DNA from: Escherichia coli O127:H6 str. E2348/69
GTDB taxonomy: Bacteria > Pseudomonadota > Gammaproteobacteria > Enterobacterales > Enterobacteriaceae
DNA: 64,000 nucleotides
Assembly: GCF_000026545.1 (NCBI RefSeq)
Contig: NC_011601.1
Strand: one strand, 5' to 3'
Positions 9,645 through 48,374 of this stretch are shown here, one piece after another (the first letter of the stretch is position 1; each line of letters opens with the position of its first letter). The position numbers and the translations under genes were made by a program. The notes below the pieces were generated by a model. The model was not told the DNA's origin. It did not search any database and was given only the letters and a program-made list of their open reading frames with translations.

Positions 9645-10574
9645 ATGGAACGACTAAAACGCATGTCGGTGTTTGCCAAAGTAGTTGAATTTGGCTCTTT
9701 TACCGCCGCCGCCAGACAGCTACAGATGAGCGTTTCGTCCATCAGTCAGACGGTGTCAAAACTGGAAGATGAGTTACAGGTAAAGCTGTTAAACCGTAGT
9801 ACACGCAGCATTGGCCTGACTGAAGCCGGCAGAATTTACTACCAGGGCTGCCGTCGGATGCTCCATGAAGTGCAGGATGTTCATGAGCAACTGTATGCCT
9901 TCAATAACACCCCCATCGGGACGCTGCGCATTGGCTGTTCTTCAACTATGGCACAAAATGTTCTCGCCGGGCTGACGGCAAAAATGCTGAAAGAATACCC
10001 AGGTTTGAGCGTCAATCTGGTTACCGGAATTCCTGCCCCCGACCTGATTGCCGACGGTCTGGATGTGGTGATCCGCGTCGGCGCGTTGCAAGATTCCAGC
10101 CTGTTTTCCCGCCGTCTGGGCGCGATGCCAATGGTGGTGTGCGCCGCAAAAAGCTATCTCACACAATACGGCATACCAGAAAAACCCGCCGATTTAAGTA
10201 GTCATTCATGGCTTGAATACAGCGTGCGACCCGACAATGAATTTGAACTGATCGCACCGGAAGGGATCTCGACTCGCCTGATCCCGCAAGGGAGATTTGT
10301 GACTAATGATCCGATGACGCTGGTGCGCTGGCTGACGGCGGGTGCCGGGATCGCCTACGTGCCGCTGATGTGGGTGATCAACGAGATCAATCGCGGGGAA
10401 CTGGAGATCCTGCTGCCACGTTACCAGTCAGACCCACGCCCGGTTTATGCGTTATATACCGAAAAAGATAAGCTGCCGCTGAAGGTACAAGTCGTGATCA
10501 ACTCGCTAACGGATTATTTTGTTGAGGTCGGTAAATTGTTTCAGGAGATGCACGGGCGCGGGAAAGAGAAGTAA
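9645..10574 (+). CDS. aaeR: LysR-family transcriptional activator AaeR, 309 aa
   Basis: ORF track; MERLKRMSVFAKVVEFGSFTAAARQLQMSVSSISQTVSKLE... helix-turn-helix N-terminus; divergent from aaeXAB. Confidence 0.95.
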   Translation: MERLKRMSVFAKVVEFGSFTAAARQLQMSVSSISQTVSKLEDELQVKLLNRSTRSIGLTEAGRIYYQGCRRMLHEVQDVHEQLYAFNNTPIGTLRIGCSSTMAQNVLAGLTAKMLKEYPGLSVNLVTGIPAPDLIADGLDVVIRVGALQDSSLFSRRLGAMPMVVCAAKSYLTQYGIPEKPADLSSHSWLEYSVRPDNEFELIAPEGISTRLIPQGRFVTNDPMTLVRWLTAGAGIAYVPLMWVINEINRGELEILLPRYQSDPRPVYALYTEKDKLPLKVQVVINSLTDYFVEVGKLFQEMHGRGKEK

Positions 10575-10637
10575 TTAATATTGTACTGTTACGTTGTACA
10601 AACCTGTGCCAACGGGTTTCCCTCACCCTAACCCCAG

Positions 10638-10656
10638 CTGTCTCTTATACACAAAT
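10638..10656 (+). repeat. Left terminal inverted repeat of the IS (outside-end-like)
   Basis: CTGTCTCTTATACACAAAT; first 9 bp identical to the inverted right end. Confidence 0.8.
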
Positions 10657-10802
10657 CCCCACCCGGGGATTTGTGATGTCTGTCAGTCTGCTTTAGGGGG
10701 ACTCTTTCCATCCGGTAGTTTCCTTCCTCCCCGGCAGCGATTTTTTGAACTTTTTCCTCACCCGTTGATCTTCTCTTATATTTCATTTTCTTCGGGTCTG
10801 TT

Positions 10803-12176
10803 ATGGTACTTTCTGATTGTTATTCATGGGCTAACGAGCAGTTTGGACATGCCCGTCTCGGTGATCCGCGTCGTACACGACGCCTTGTGTCACTGGCCTC
10901 TTCTCTCGCTCAGCATGCAGGTCTTTCTATTGTGAAATCATCCCAGTCCACTGCTCAGGTTGAAGGTGCGTACCGCCTGATACGTAACCCGTCTGTGTCC
11001 CCGCAAGCCATTGCCGAAGCCGGATTTACCGCCACTGTAAGGGCATGTGAGGCTCATCCGCTGCTCCTCGCGCTGGAAGACACCACCACCATTAACTTCA
11101 GTCACAGTACGGCATCTGATGACCTGGGGAATACCACCACTAACCCGAAGACGCGCGGGCTGCTGGCTCACTCTGTCCTGATGTACGCCCCCGACAGCGC
11201 CCTGCCAGTCGGTCTTATCGAACAGCAGCGCTGGAGTCGTGCCACGGACACCTACGGTGTTAAGCACCAGCGAAAAGAACGTCCCTATGAAGAAAAAGAA
11301 AGTTACCGCTGGCAGCAGGCTTCGGAGCGCATGGCCGAACGGCTGGGGGAGATACAGAAACGGGTAATCACTGTCTGTGACCGGGAAGCGGATATCTGGC
11401 ATTACCTGCATTATAAAGTCAGCCACGGGCAGCGCTTCGTGGTGCGTGCAGCACAGAATCGCCGGCTGGAAGAAGCACCCGGCAAGCTCTTCGAACTGCC
11501 GGAAGTCCTGGCAACCGCGGGAAGCCACACGCTGAATGTGATGCAAAAAGGCGGGCGGGCAGCCCGCCAGGCCCGGATGTTCATCAGTTACAGCGAAGTC
11601 AGCATAAAAAATCCCGACAACAGCGGCCAGGCGCTCCCGCTCACGTATGTCTGTTGCCGGGAGCAGGCAGAGGACGGCGCCTGCTGGCATCTGCTGACGT
11701 CAGAAAAAGTGGCGAGTGCCGCCGATGCGCGACGTATCGTCAGCCATTACGAGCGACGCTGGCTGATAGAGGAATACCACAAGGCGTGGAAAAGTGGTGG
11801 TACATGTGTGGAATCGCTGCGAATGCAGACCCGGGATAACCTCGAGCGCATGGTGGTTATCAAGGCGTTTATCGCGGTGCGGGTGCTGGGCCTGCGGCAG
11901 GGCGGTATCAGTGAAGAAACACAAAATGACAGCTGTGAGAAAATACTGACGCCGACAGAGTGGAAACTGCTGTGGGTTAAGCTGGAAGGAAAACCGCTTC
12001 CGTCACAGATGCCGACACTGAAATGGGCCTGTCTGAAACTGGCGAAACTGGGGCGATGGCATGACAGCAAACGCACCGGTCGCCCCGGTTGGGTAGTCAT
12101 GTGGGATGGCTGGTTCAGACTTCAGGATATGGTTGAGGGTTACCTGGTGATGAAGTCTCTTGATCAGGAGATCTGA
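10803..12176 (+). CDS. IS4-family (Tn5/IS50-type) DDE transposase, 457 aa
   Basis: ORF track; conserved Tn5 Tnp blocks GDPRRTRRLV, EGAYRLIRNP, ALEDTTT, VCDREADI, RFVVR, HYERRWLIEEYHKAWK (YREK), DNLERMV, KWACLKLAKLGRWHDSKRTG; stop codon TGA (12174-12176) lies inside the right inverted repeat as in IS50. Confidence 0.9.
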   Translation: MVLSDCYSWANEQFGHARLGDPRRTRRLVSLASSLAQHAGLSIVKSSQSTAQVEGAYRLIRNPSVSPQAIAEAGFTATVRACEAHPLLLALEDTTTINFSHSTASDDLGNTTTNPKTRGLLAHSVLMYAPDSALPVGLIEQQRWSRATDTYGVKHQRKERPYEEKESYRWQQASERMAERLGEIQKRVITVCDREADIWHYLHYKVSHGQRFVVRAAQNRRLEEAPGKLFELPEVLATAGSHTLNVMQKGGRAARQARMFISYSEVSIKNPDNSGQALPLTYVCCREQAEDGACWHLLTSEKVASAADARRIVSHYERRWLIEEYHKAWKSGGTCVESLRMQTRDNLERMVVIKAFIAVRVLGLRQGGISEETQNDSCEKILTPTEWKLLWVKLEGKPLPSQMPTLKWACLKLAKLGRWHDSKRTGRPGWVVMWDGWFRLQDMVEGYLVMKSLDQEI

Positions 12177-12187
12177 TCAAGAGACAG
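12169..12187 (-). repeat. Right terminal inverted repeat of the IS (inside-end type, contains two GATC Dam sites)
   Basis: Plus strand AGATCTGATCAAGAGACAG is the reverse complement of CTGTCTCTTGATCAGATCT. Confidence 0.85.
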
Positions 12188-12259
12188 AACCCCAGAGGGG
12201 CGAGGGGACCGTTCGTACACGGAGAAGGATTAATTATCCTTCTGAAAATACTGAAATTA

Positions 12260-13720
<1,461 letters not shown>

Positions 13721-13751
13721 TTAGTTACTGCAGTAGAGGATTTTTTACGGC

Positions 13752-13786
13752 TGCCGGATGCGGCGTGAACGCCCTGTCCGGCCTAC
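13752..13786. repeat. REP (repetitive extragenic palindromic) element
   Basis: ctgccggatgcggcgtgaacgccctgtccggcctac matches the E. coli REP consensus GCCGGATGCGGCGTGAACGCCTTATCCGGCCTAC; lies between tldD and yhdP. Confidence 0.8.
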
Positions 13787-13860
13787 GGTTATGTTCTGGC
13801 TCGTTGGCCTTTGGCAACGATTATCATATGAGATTGGGGCAATTACGCGCCCTCGTCAAA

Positions 13861-44598: not shown

Positions 44599-44620
44599 TT
44601 GAATGTTAGTTCGAAAAGCA

Positions 44621-44647
44621 AAAAGGCCATCCTTTCGGATGGCCTTT
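44621..44647 (-). terminator. rrn operon terminator (also 3' of yhdZ on the opposite strand)
   Basis: aaaaggccatcc-tttc-ggatggccttt hairpin with T-run on the minus strand immediately downstream of the distal 5S gene. Confidence 0.7.
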
Positions 44648-44658
44648 CGCTTGATTTG

Positions 44659-44778
44659 ATGTCTGGCAGTTCCCTACTCTCGCATGGGGAGACCCCACAC
44701 TACCATCGGCGCTACGGCGTTTCACTTCTGAGTTCGGCATGGGGTCAGGTGGGACCACCGCGCTACTGCCGCCAGACA
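44659..44778 (-). rRNA. rrfF: 5S ribosomal RNA (distal copy, rrfF position)
   Basis: 120-nt reverse-complement match to E. coli 5S rRNA with a few substitutions. Confidence 0.93.
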
Positions 44779-44815
44779 AATTCTTTTCTAATCTGCCGAA
44801 CTTTAACCTAAAAAG

Positions 44816-44891
44816 TGGTGCTGATACCCAGAGTCGAACTGGGGACCTCACCCTTACCAAGGGTGCGCTCTACCAACTGAGCCATATCAGC
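44816..44891 (-). tRNA. thrV: tRNA-Thr (anticodon GGU)
   Basis: Reverse complement reads GCTGATATGGCTCAGTTGGTAGAGCGCACCCTTGGTAAGGGTGAGGTCCCCAGTTCGACTCTGGGTATCAGCACCA, recognised as E. coli tRNA-Thr; located between the two 5S genes as in rrnD. Confidence 0.93.
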
Positions 44892-44903
44892 ACGCTAAAT
44901 TTG

Positions 44904-48020: not shown

Positions 48021-48213
48021 TCACAACCCGAAGATGTTTCTTGCGATTCATCATCGTGCTGCGAAAATTTGAGAGACTCACGAACAACTCTCGTTGTTCA
48101 GTGTTTCAATTTTCAGCTTGATCCAGATTTTTAAAGAGCAAATATCTCAAACATCACCCGAAGATGAGTTTTGAGATATTAAGGCAGGTGACTTTCACTC
48201 ACAAACCAGCAAG

Positions 48214-48289
48214 TGGCGTCCCCTAGGGGATTCGAACCCCTGTTACCGCCGTGAAAGGGCGGTGTCCTGGGCCTCTAGACGAAGGGGAC
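48214..48289 (-). tRNA. tRNA-Glu (anticodon UUC) in the 16S-23S spacer
   Basis: Reverse complement reads GTCCCCTTCGTCTAGAGGCCCAGGACACCGCCCTTTCACGGCGGTAACAGGGGTTCGAATCCCCTAGGGGACGCCA, recognised as E. coli tRNA-Glu; it is the only tRNA in the 354-bp spacer. Confidence 0.93.
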
Positions 48290-48374
48290 GTATCAGTCTG
48301 CTTCGCAAGACGCCTTGCTTTTCACTTTCTATCAGACAATCTGTGTGAGCACTGCAAAGTACGCTTCTTTAAGG

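What the first reader, a model, noticed from the sequence alone, without database searches (positions are those of the whole stretch)
10638..12187. Intact IS50-like (IS4-family) insertion sequence between the convergent 3' ends of aaeR and tldD
A 1,550-bp element interrupts the short aaeR-tldD intergenic region. Removing the element and one copy of the flanking repeat leaves about 127 bp, which is roughly the size I recall for the K-12 empty site. It has Tn5/IS50 architecture: the left end CTGTCTCTTATACACAAAT resembles the Tn5 outside/mosaic end, and the right end is identical to the 19-bp Tn5/IS50 inside end CTGTCTCTTGATCAGATCT. A single 457-aa transposase ORF runs left to right and its TGA stop lies inside the right inverted repeat, as in IS50. 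The transposase keeps the Tn5 catalytic blocks (ALEDTTT, VCDREADI, YREK motif HYERRWLIEEYHKAWK) but is clearly diverged from Tn5 Tnp, so it is a distinct natural relative rather than laboratory Tn5. It is the only accessory DNA in the window and appears complete, so it is potentially active.
Basis: partly seen in the sequence, partly recalled or inferred. Interest (0 to 1): 0.7.

Follow-up and report, generated by a model that had tools for sequence, protein, structure and literature searches.

The report
Known insertion sequence ISEc13 in EPEC
The 1,550-bp block between aaeR and tldD is an intact copy of ISEc13, a named jumping gene related to Tn5 that is already annotated at this spot in E. 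coli E2348/69; the only unexpected point is that it inserts almost only at one short palindromic DNA motif.

Summary
Window 10638-12187 is a 1,550-bp insertion sequence. It has Tn5-type ends, one 457-aa transposase gene whose TGA stop lies in the right end, and an 8-bp target duplication (AACCCCAG).

It is not new. The window is 100% identical to E. coli O127:H6 E2348/69, and RefSeq annotates this gene there as "IS4-like element ISEc13 family transposase". The transposase is 39% identical to the Tn5/IS50 transposase. It keeps the DDE and YREK residues and the three Tn5 Pfam domains. The right end is 19/19 identical to the IS50 inside end, and the left end is 17/19 to the outside end.

The empty site is present in 5,416 of 5,426 complete E. 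coli genomes. Nissle 1917 has exactly the predicted 127-bp spacer; K-12 has 133 bp. Copies that are identical or differ by 1-2 bases lie at many other loci, so the element is probably active.

The added result is a strong target preference for CCCC(T/C)-N8(9)-(A/G)GGGG. The reconstructed empty window has only one exact CCCT-N8-AGGG site, and that is the occupied one. It lies in a BoxC/TMECO repeat. An unrelated strain has a different ISEc13 allele at the same position. I found no description of this preference in the searchable literature.

The parts
10620..10637 (.). Left half of the split BoxC/TMECO-type intergenic repeat (CCCTCACCCTAACCCCAG). It includes the CCCT half-site (10626-10629) and the left copy of the 8-bp target duplication AACCCCAG (10630-10637).
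   Evidence: The TMECO consensus is taken from PMC4666352.
10638..10656 (+). Left terminal repeat CTGTCTCTTATACACAAAT. It matches the Tn5 outside end and the mosaic end at 17/19 each. It contains a DnaA-box-like TTATACACA at 10645-10653.
10650..10675 (+). Subterminal perfect hairpin (11-bp stem, 4-nt loop) that overlaps the inner part of the left end. Folded as RNA it gives -22.1 kcal/mol with z = -4.9. It may act as a barrier or structure for transcripts reading in from aaeR; this is inferred.
10803..12176 (+). ISEc13 transposase gene, 457 aa, identical to RefSeq WP_000244358.1. The catalytic codons are D93 (11079-11081), D193 (11379-11381) and E323 (11769-11771). The YREK residues are Y316, R319, E323 and K330.
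12155..12185 (+). Subterminal perfect hairpin (13-bp stem, 5-nt loop) formed by the right end and an inverted copy of its positions 3-15. It carries three GATC (Dam) sites, at 12162, 12170 and 12175.
12169..12187 (-). Right terminal repeat CTGTCTCTTGATCAGATCT, 19/19 identical to the IS50 inside end. It contains the transposase stop codon TGA (12174-12176).
12188..12207 (.). Right copy of the target duplication AACCCCAG (12188-12195), followed by the AGGG half-site (12196-12199) and the G-rich arm AGGGGCGAGGGG of the split BoxC/TMECO repeat.

Best explanation
Window 10638-12187 is an intact, probably transposition-competent copy of ISEc13, a catalogued insertion sequence of the IS4 family, IS50 (Tn5) subgroup. 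It sits in the chromosome of enteropathogenic E. coli O127:H6 E2348/69.

By homology with Tn5 (inferred, not shown here), the 457-aa DDE transposase binds the two 19-bp ends and pairs them in a dimeric complex. It then excises the element through hairpin intermediates (cut-and-paste) and joins the 3' ends to target DNA with an 8-bp, sometimes 9-bp, stagger, which produces the flanking duplication.

ISEc13 differs from Tn5 in target choice. Tn5 inserts almost at random, whereas ISEc13 selects a symmetric motif, CCCC(T/C)-N8/9-(A/G)GGGG, and duplicates the N8/9. Such motifs occur mainly in G+C-rich intergenic hairpins, namely terminator stems and BoxC/TMECO repeats. That explains why this copy lies in the BoxC-type repeat between the convergent 3' ends of aaeR and tldD, where it interrupts no gene.

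The inside-end-type right terminus carries Dam sites and the left terminus has a DnaA-box-like sequence. Both suggest Tn5-like host control, again by inference.
For: Identity and naming:
- There is a 100% match, flanks included, to three E2348/69 assemblies, where the gene is annotated as an ISEc13 family transposase between aaeR and tldD.
- NCBIfam NF033590 (IS4 family) scores 514 bits against a cut-off of 160.
- Pfam finds Tnp_DNA_bind, DDE_Tnp_1 and Dimer_Tnp_Tn5.
- The Tn5 transposase structures 1MUH and 1MUS match at E = 7e-84 over the full length, and identity to IS50 is 39%.
- D93, D193 and E323, and Y(2)R(3)E(6)K, are present.
- Size, end signature and 8-9-bp duplication match the IS50 subgroup in Table 1 of PMC2266710.
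- The right end equals the IS50 inside end and the left end is 17/19 to the outside end.

Clean insertion:
- The empty site is present in 5,416 of 5,426 genomes.
- The Nissle spacer equals the window minus the IS minus 8 bp, apart from one base.

Activity:
- 873 genomes carry copies covering at least 80% of the element, and there are up to 32 matching places per genome.
- The 17 full-length copies fetched from other loci and plasmids differ from this one by 0-2 bases.
- The three E2348/69 assemblies have 30, 29 and 27 matching places.

Target preference:
- Of the 14 distinct sites with a duplication, 13 have 8 bp and one has 9 bp; a further 9-bp case is an older variant.
- In 42 unique half-sites, C occupies positions -13 to -10 in 79-90%. 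Exact CCCT at -12 to -9 occurs in 13 of 42 (binomial P about 5e-21). The relaxed motif, in either the 8-bp or 9-bp register, occurs in 39 of 42.
- The only exact CCCT-N8-AGGG site in the reconstructed 62.4-kb empty window is the occupied one.
- Isolate 538 carries a different ISEc13 allele at the same position, in flanks 0.6-1.2% diverged.
Against: No transposition was observed; activity is inferred from intactness and near-identical copies. No sigma-70-like promoter was predicted on the + strand upstream of the transposase gene, and the ribosome-binding site looks weak, so expression may be very low. The ISfinder reference sequence could not be consulted, so the name rests on RefSeq/PGAP annotation. 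The target motif comes from insertions that survived in natural genomes, so selection against harmful insertions contributes to the intergenic bias, although it cannot explain the fixed register of the motif. Three of the E. coli sites (L004-L006) were found because their flanks resemble the window's, which makes them a biased sample. A few sites fit poorly, such as the right half of the dgoD insertion (L014) and the caccacaCCTGTAAC flank.
Confidence: 0.95

Rival explanations
1. The block is laboratory Tn5/IS50, or a Tn5 mosaic-end (Nextera) adapter artefact introduced during sequencing or assembly.
For: The right end is identical to the IS50 inside end, and the left end differs from the mosaic end at only two positions.
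Against: The transposase is only 39% identical to that of IS50. The element is flanked by a target duplication in a precisely reconstructable site. It is present at the same place in three independent E2348/69 assemblies, and at many loci in 873 genomes.
Confidence: 0.01
2. The copy is an immobile fossil that looks intact but no longer transposes. This could be through loss of promoter function or because the subterminal hairpins block end use.
For: No promoter-like site was found on the + strand. Most E. coli genomes with a match carry only degraded relics at 90-99% identity, with a median of one place per genome. Deleted derivatives are common in metagenome contigs.
Against: This copy is base-for-base identical to copies at dgoD and other loci. 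Across strains, copies differ by at most 2 bases. E2348/69 has about 30 matching places, and the count differs between stocks of the same strain. The ORF, the catalytic residues, both ends and the duplication are all intact.
Confidence: 0.05
3. The position between convergent genes is chance plus purifying selection, with only harmless insertions surviving, and there is no real target specificity.
For: Intergenic 3' regions tolerate insertions. At least one copy sits inside a gene, dgoD, with only a half-motif (L014).
Against: Selection cannot fix the register of a C-run at -13 to -10 from both ends in 39 of 42 half-sites. It also cannot explain why the single exact CCCT-N8-AGGG site in 62 kb is the one used. 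Two different alleles sit at identical positions in the aaeR-tldD spacer and in the ybaY-MGMT spacer (L013 versus L065).
Confidence: 0.04

Closest known systems
ISEc13 (ISfinder name, used by RefSeq/PGAP; IS4 family, IS50 subgroup)
   Same: The transposase is identical to WP_000244358.1, named 'IS4-like element ISEc13 family transposase'. The whole 1,550-bp element and its flanks are 100% identical to E2348/69 at this locus.
   Different: Nothing differs; this is that element. The ISfinder reference entry itself could not be read here.
IS50 / Tn5
   Same: Both have a single transposase gene running from the outside-end side to the inside-end side, with the stop codon inside the inside end. The 19-bp inside end is identical and the outside-type end matches at 17/19, including a DnaA-box-like TTATACACA. 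The DDE and YREK residues, W295 (aligned with Tn5 W298) and the three Pfam domains are shared, and the full-length match to the solved Tn5 structures has E = 7e-84.
   Different: Protein identity is only 39%. The codon aligned with Met56, the start of the Tn5 inhibitor protein, is Val (GTT), so no inhibitor protein is expected. The untranslated leader is 165 bp, longer than my recollection of about 90 bp for IS50 (not measured here). Perfect subterminal hairpins lie at both ends. The duplication is usually 8 bp rather than 9 bp. There is a strong symmetric target motif outside the duplication, whereas Tn5 has a weak consensus inside it (Goryshin 1998, as cited in PMC1525189).
Insertion sequences that target intergenic palindromic repeats: IS1397 and ISKpn1 (IS3 family), IS621 (IS110 family), ISRm22 (IS4 family) (PMC1525189); also IS231A, whose GGG-N5-CCC target I give from memory
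   Same: Insertions fall at a fixed position in short G+C-rich palindromes in intergenic DNA. This allows many copies with little gene disruption.
   Different: The target here is not REP/BIME but a CCCCY-N8-RGGGG core, found in BoxC/TMECO repeats, terminator stems and Ibs/Sib loci. The transposase is Tn5-like. No published description of this preference was found in the searchable library.

Membership tests
IS4 family (as defined in PMC2266710) | DDE triad with D(60-110)D(100-150)E spacing | tested here: met
   D93, D193 and E323 give spacings of 100 and 130. They align with Tn5 D97, D188 and E326.
IS4 family (as defined in PMC2266710) | Y(2)R(3)E(6)K motif | tested here: met
   Y316, R319, E323 and K330 lie in HYERRWLIEEYHKAWK.
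IS4 family (as defined in PMC2266710) | Transposase encoded by a single ORF; curated family model | tested here: met
   There is one 457-aa ORF. NCBIfam NF033590 scores 514 bits against a cut-off of 160.
IS50 subgroup | Size 1350-1550 bp; end signature CW------Y---CA-A--W-; direct repeats of 8-9 bp (Table 1 of PMC2266710) | tested here: met
   The element is 1,550 bp. Both ends fit the signature at positions 1, 2, 9, 13, 14, 16 and 19. The duplication is 8 bp here and 8 or 9 bp in other copies.
IS50 subgroup | Tn5-type N-terminal DNA-binding domain and C-terminal dimerisation domain | tested here: met
   Pfam PF14706 (E = 2.8e-19) and PF02281 (E = 9.7e-5). The alignment to the Tn5 transposase structures is full-length.
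ISEc13 | Near-identity to the ISfinder reference sequence of ISEc13 | not testable with these tools
   ISfinder is not available here. As a proxy, the protein is identical to RefSeq WP_000244358.1, which PGAP names 'IS4-like element ISEc13 family transposase'.
IS50 itself (Tn5 arm) | Near-identical sequence to IS50 | tested here: not met
   Amino-acid identity is 39%. Only the 19-bp ends are shared at the DNA level.
IS50 itself (Tn5 arm) | Internal start (Met56) giving the inhibitor protein; 9-bp duplication | tested here: not met
   The aligned codon is GTT (Val), and no in-frame ATG occurs before codon 127. The duplication is 8 bp in most copies.
Palindrome-targeting insertion sequences (a functional class, not a sequence family) | Recurrent insertion at a fixed position of an intergenic palindromic motif | tested here: met
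   39 of 42 half-sites carry the C-run motif. The only exact site in the window is the one used. There are independent hits at the same site.

The most novel reading that the evidence does not exclude
ISEc13 is a natural Tn5-family transposase with strong, symmetric, sequence-specific target selection: CCCC(T/C)-N8/9-(A/G)GGGG, with the determinants outside the duplicated bases. This steers it into BoxC/TMECO repeats and terminator stems. The property appears undescribed in the searchable literature. It could serve as a model for how Tn5-type transpososomes read target DNA, and it may account for part of the reported excess variability around TMECO repeats.
Probability: 0.5. Interest if true: 0.45.

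Novelty: already known. Interest (0 to 1): 0.2.

Why it matters
As found, this is routine: a catalogued IS in a fully sequenced and annotated reference pathogen. It matters locally because ISEc13 is a high-copy element in E2348/69 (about 30 matching places). It splits the repeat between aaeR and tldD, and its transposase gene is co-oriented with aaeR.

The by-product is of moderate interest. A Tn5 relative with an identical inside end but a tight palindromic target preference could help explain target capture in the IS4 family. It could also explain how an IS multiplies while sparing genes. It links a transposase to BoxC/TMECO repeats, for which PMC4666352 reported no association with mobile elements.

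Tried and rejected
- A scan of 100,044 species-representative genomes for the exact 31-base left end found nothing, so it gave no host-range information.
- An Rfam search of 10300-12500 at E <= 1 found no RNA family.
- The promoter scan found no sigma-70-like site for the transposase on the + strand, so its promoter remains unidentified.
- Mechanical ORFs on the opposite strand (10938-11690, 11747-12100), and the ORF crossing the left junction (10594-10935), match no NCBIfam family. I treat them as non-coding.
- A 20-nt, 80% complementarity between the start-codon region (10789-10808) and 11132-11151 was considered as a translational fold-back. By my estimate about 0.5 such pairs are expected by chance in 1.7 kb, so I dropped it.
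- The E2348/69 genome paper (PMC2612414) is not held. The IS4 review and its supplements do not mention ISEc13.
- The metagenome scan returned mostly old deleted relics rather than fresh junctions, so it added fewer independent sites than hoped.
- I considered a 9-bp duplication with shifted IS boundaries and rejected it. The IS boundaries are fixed by comparing copies, and the Nissle empty site fits only an 8-bp duplication.

Full report
**1. The observation**

- The left 19-mer CTGTCTCTTATACACAAAT and the right 19-mer CTGTCTCTTGATCAGATCT (on the minus strand) each occur exactly once in the 64-kb window, at the stated ends. Shuffled controls give essentially no chance matches.
- The element is 1,550 bp. 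Its terminal 9 bp are perfect inverted repeats, and the two 19-mers agree at 13 of 19 positions.
- A single long ORF, 10803-12176 on the + strand, encodes 457 aa. Its TGA stop (12174-12176) lies inside the right repeat.
- The element is flanked by the 8-bp direct repeat AACCCCAG.

**2. What it is**

- A megablast of the element against 5,426 complete E. coli genomes gave 100% identity to E. coli O127:H6 E2348/69, where the gene is annotated "IS4-like element ISEc13 family transposase".
- With 500 bp of flank on each side, the match is still 100% in three independent E2348/69 assemblies. Only four genomes in the collection carry the element at aaeR-tldD.
- The RefSeq feature table for E2348/69 shows aaeB-aaeA-aaeX, then aaeR, the ISEc13 transposase (WP_000244358.1) and tldD, as in the window. 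So the window comes from E2348/69 or a near-identical strain, and the element is already catalogued and annotated at this locus.
- The protein scores 514 bits on NCBIfam NF033590 (IS4 family; cut-off 160).
- It has the Pfam domains Tnp_DNA_bind, DDE_Tnp_1 and Dimer_Tnp_Tn5.
- It matches the solved Tn5 transposase structures over its full length at E = 7e-84.
- Against an IS50 copy taken from a Tn5-bearing plasmid, it is 39% identical.
- The catalytic residues are D93, D193 and E323, and the YREK residues are Y316, R319, E323 and K330. This fits the family definition D(60-110)D(100-150)E and Y(2)R(3)E(6)K in the IS4 review PMC2266710.
- Size (1,550 bp), end signature (CW------Y---CA-A--W-) and duplication length (8-9 bp) fit that review's IS50 subgroup.

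**3. The recalled Tn5 ends**

- The outside end (CTGACTCTTATACACAAGT) and the mosaic end (CTGTCTCTTATACACATCT) are confirmed by the oligonucleotides in PMC3347997.
- The inside end is confirmed from the Tn5 copy on plasmid NZ_CP058717.1. There ...AGATCTGATCAAGAGACAG abuts aph(3')-IIa, and the IS50 stop codon also lies inside the end.
- The ISEc13 right end is 19/19 identical to the inside end. The left end is 17/19 to both the outside and mosaic ends, and it keeps the DnaA-box-like TTATACACA.
- An older ISEc13 variant has CTGTCTCTTATACACAAGT, which is 18/19 to the outside end.
- The 19-bp inside end is fully conserved even though the proteins share only 39% identity. This is notable but consistent with that end overlapping the coding sequence and the Dam sites.

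**4. Clean insertion**

- A 295-bp reconstruction of the empty site is present in 5,416 of 5,426 genomes.
- The Nissle 1917 aaeR-tldD spacer is 127 bp. It aligns without gaps to the window minus the IS and minus one 8-bp repeat copy, with one base different. K-12 has 133 bp because of an extra TCACCC.
- Against K-12 the whole window is collinear at about 98% identity, and the IS is the only block specific to the window.

**5. Activity (inferred)**

- 2,991 genomes have some match to the element. Most of these are old relics at 90-99% identity, with a median of one place per genome.
- 873 genomes carry a copy covering at least 80% of the element, and one genome has 32 matching places.
- The 17 full-length copies I fetched from other loci and plasmids differ from the window copy by 0-2 bases.
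- The three assemblies of E2348/69 have 30, 29 and 27 matching places.
- Two copies lack a duplication, which points to IS-mediated rearrangement (L015, L016).
- One copy interrupts dgoD in E2348/69.
- No transposition event was observed directly.

**6. Why it sits where it does**

While checking the duplication length in other copies, a target motif emerged.
- Of the 14 distinct sites with a duplication, 13 have 8 bp and one has 9 bp; the older variant at the pgtA locus adds another 9-bp case.
- In nearly all sites the duplicated bases are bracketed by an inverted repeat, CCCT...AGGG or a close variant.
- I pooled left flanks with reverse-complemented right flanks from E. coli genomes and from metagenome contigs that hold the exact 38-base left end. 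This gave 42 unique half-sites.
- In those half-sites, C occupies positions -13 to -10 in 79-90% of cases, and T or C occupies -9.
- Exact CCCT at -12 to -9 occurs 13 times (binomial P about 5e-21). A relaxed CYCY motif in the 8-bp or 9-bp register occurs in 39 of 42.
- The reconstructed 62.4-kb empty window contains exactly one CCCT-N8-AGGG site, and it is the occupied one.
- Isolate 538 (NZ_OW967795.1) carries a different ISEc13 allele (873A, 1440A) at the same position, in the same orientation and with the same duplication. Its flanks differ from the window's by 0.6-1.2% and a 6-bp indel. This is most simply an independent hit on the same site.
- The ybaY-MGMT spacer likewise holds two alleles, 99.9% and 98.2% identical to the window copy, at one position.
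- Purifying selection alone cannot produce this fixed register.

**7. What the target is**

- The aaeR-tldD target and three others (frlR-yhfS, ytfR-ytfQ, alx-sstT) are copies of the BoxC/PIT/TMECO repeat. Its published consensus is CCCTCNCCC-N3-6-GGGNGAGGG-N3-GGGNGAGGG, and it has 23 copies in MG1655, all of them intergenic (PMC4666352). That paper reported no association with mobile elements.
- Other targets are terminator-like stems (lysP-cirA, agp-yccJ, and a plasmid site) and Ibs toxin loci.
- IS elements that target intergenic palindromes are known: IS1397, ISKpn1, IS621 and ISRm22 (PMC1525189).
- I found no description of this behaviour for ISEc13. Only eight held papers mention the element, each only once, and the titles are genome and resistance surveys; I did not open them.

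**8. Other anatomy**

- Both ends carry perfect subterminal hairpins that overlap the terminal repeats: 10650-10675 (11-bp stem) and 12155-12185 (13-bp stem). Both fold far better than shuffled controls.
- Three GATC sites cluster in the right end. By analogy with the IS50 inside end, they suggest Dam-sensitive end use.
- The codon aligned with Tn5 Met56, the inhibitor-protein start, is Val (GTT), so no inhibitor protein is expected.
- No + strand promoter and no Rfam family were found.
- ORFs on the opposite strand have no family support.

**9. Verdict**

The object is already known: ISEc13, annotated at this locus in a reference genome. Interest in the finding itself is low. The target preference is the one item worth passing on. 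It is well supported statistically, but no experiment backs it, and I could not check it against ISfinder.

Noticed in passing
window 10626-10637 and 12188-12199; loci L004-L019, L064-L068, L020-L060: ISEc13 insertions are bracketed by a symmetric motif, CCCC(T/C)-N8/9-(A/G)GGGG, with the N8/9 duplicated. The motif is seen in 39 of 42 unique half-sites. The only exact CCCT-N8-AGGG site in the reconstructed empty window is the occupied one.
   Followed up: yes
L064 3495-5044 (NZ_OW967795.1, isolate 538): A different ISEc13 allele (873A, 1440A) sits at exactly the same aaeR-tldD position, in the same orientation and with the same duplication. Its flanks are 0.6-1.2% diverged and have a 6-bp indel. 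This is probably an independent insertion into the same hotspot.
   Followed up: yes
window 10620-10637 and 12188-12207; K-12 L003 2451-2583: The target is a BoxC/PIT/TMECO repeat, a potential intrastrand-triplex motif with 23 copies in MG1655. The copy in E2348/69 and Nissle lacks one TCACCC unit that K-12 has. PMC4666352 reported no link between these repeats and transposases, yet at least four ISEc13 sites lie in them.
   Followed up: partly
window 10650-10675 and 12155-12185: Perfect subterminal hairpins (11-bp and 13-bp stems) overlap both terminal repeats. I do not recall comparable long hairpins in IS50. Their function is unknown; they may block incoming transcription or modulate end use.
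   Followed up: partly
L020-L060 (metagenome contigs); statistics: More than half of complete E. coli genomes (2,991 of 5,426) carry ISEc13-related DNA. Most of it is old relics at 90-99% identity, including recurrent deleted forms: positions 1-531 joined to 1121-1550 (about 954 bp), 1-452 only, and 1-50 only. These sit at a few fixed sites.
   Followed up: partly
L015 (E2348/69 'variety 2', mngR region) and L016 (pMAR2, hok-finO region): Two full-length ISEc13 copies have no target duplication, although each flank still carries a half-motif. This suggests deletion or recombination between IS copies. The three E2348/69 assemblies also differ in the number of matching places (30, 29, 27).
   Followed up: partly
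L014 601-2150 (E2348/69 chromosome 11512-13060): An ISEc13 copy identical to the window copy interrupts dgoD (galactonate dehydratase) in E2348/69. Only the left half of the target motif is present there (CTCT).
   Followed up: partly
L066 and L067 (pgtA-adjacent locus): An older ISEc13 variant (about 97% identical, 1,558-1,561 bp, transposase gene with an internal stop) has the left end CTGTCTCTTATACACAAGT, 18/19 to the Tn5 outside end. Its 9-bp duplication is flanked by CCCC...AGGGG.
   Followed up: partly
window 48142-48322 (tRNA-Glu at 48214-48289): The 16S-23S spacer of this rRNA operon (rrnD position) carries tRNA-Glu(UUC). K-12 rrnD has tRNA-Ile plus tRNA-Ala there. This is a spacer-type difference between the strains.
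   Followed up: partly
window about 13706-13860 (tldD-yhdP spacer) and about 44610-44900: Relative to K-12, the window lacks about 270 bp in the tldD-yhdP spacer (155 bp versus 429 bp). It also lacks about 110 bp near the distal 5S/tRNA-Thr end of the rRNA operon. I did not examine what the K-12-specific DNA is.
   Followed up: no
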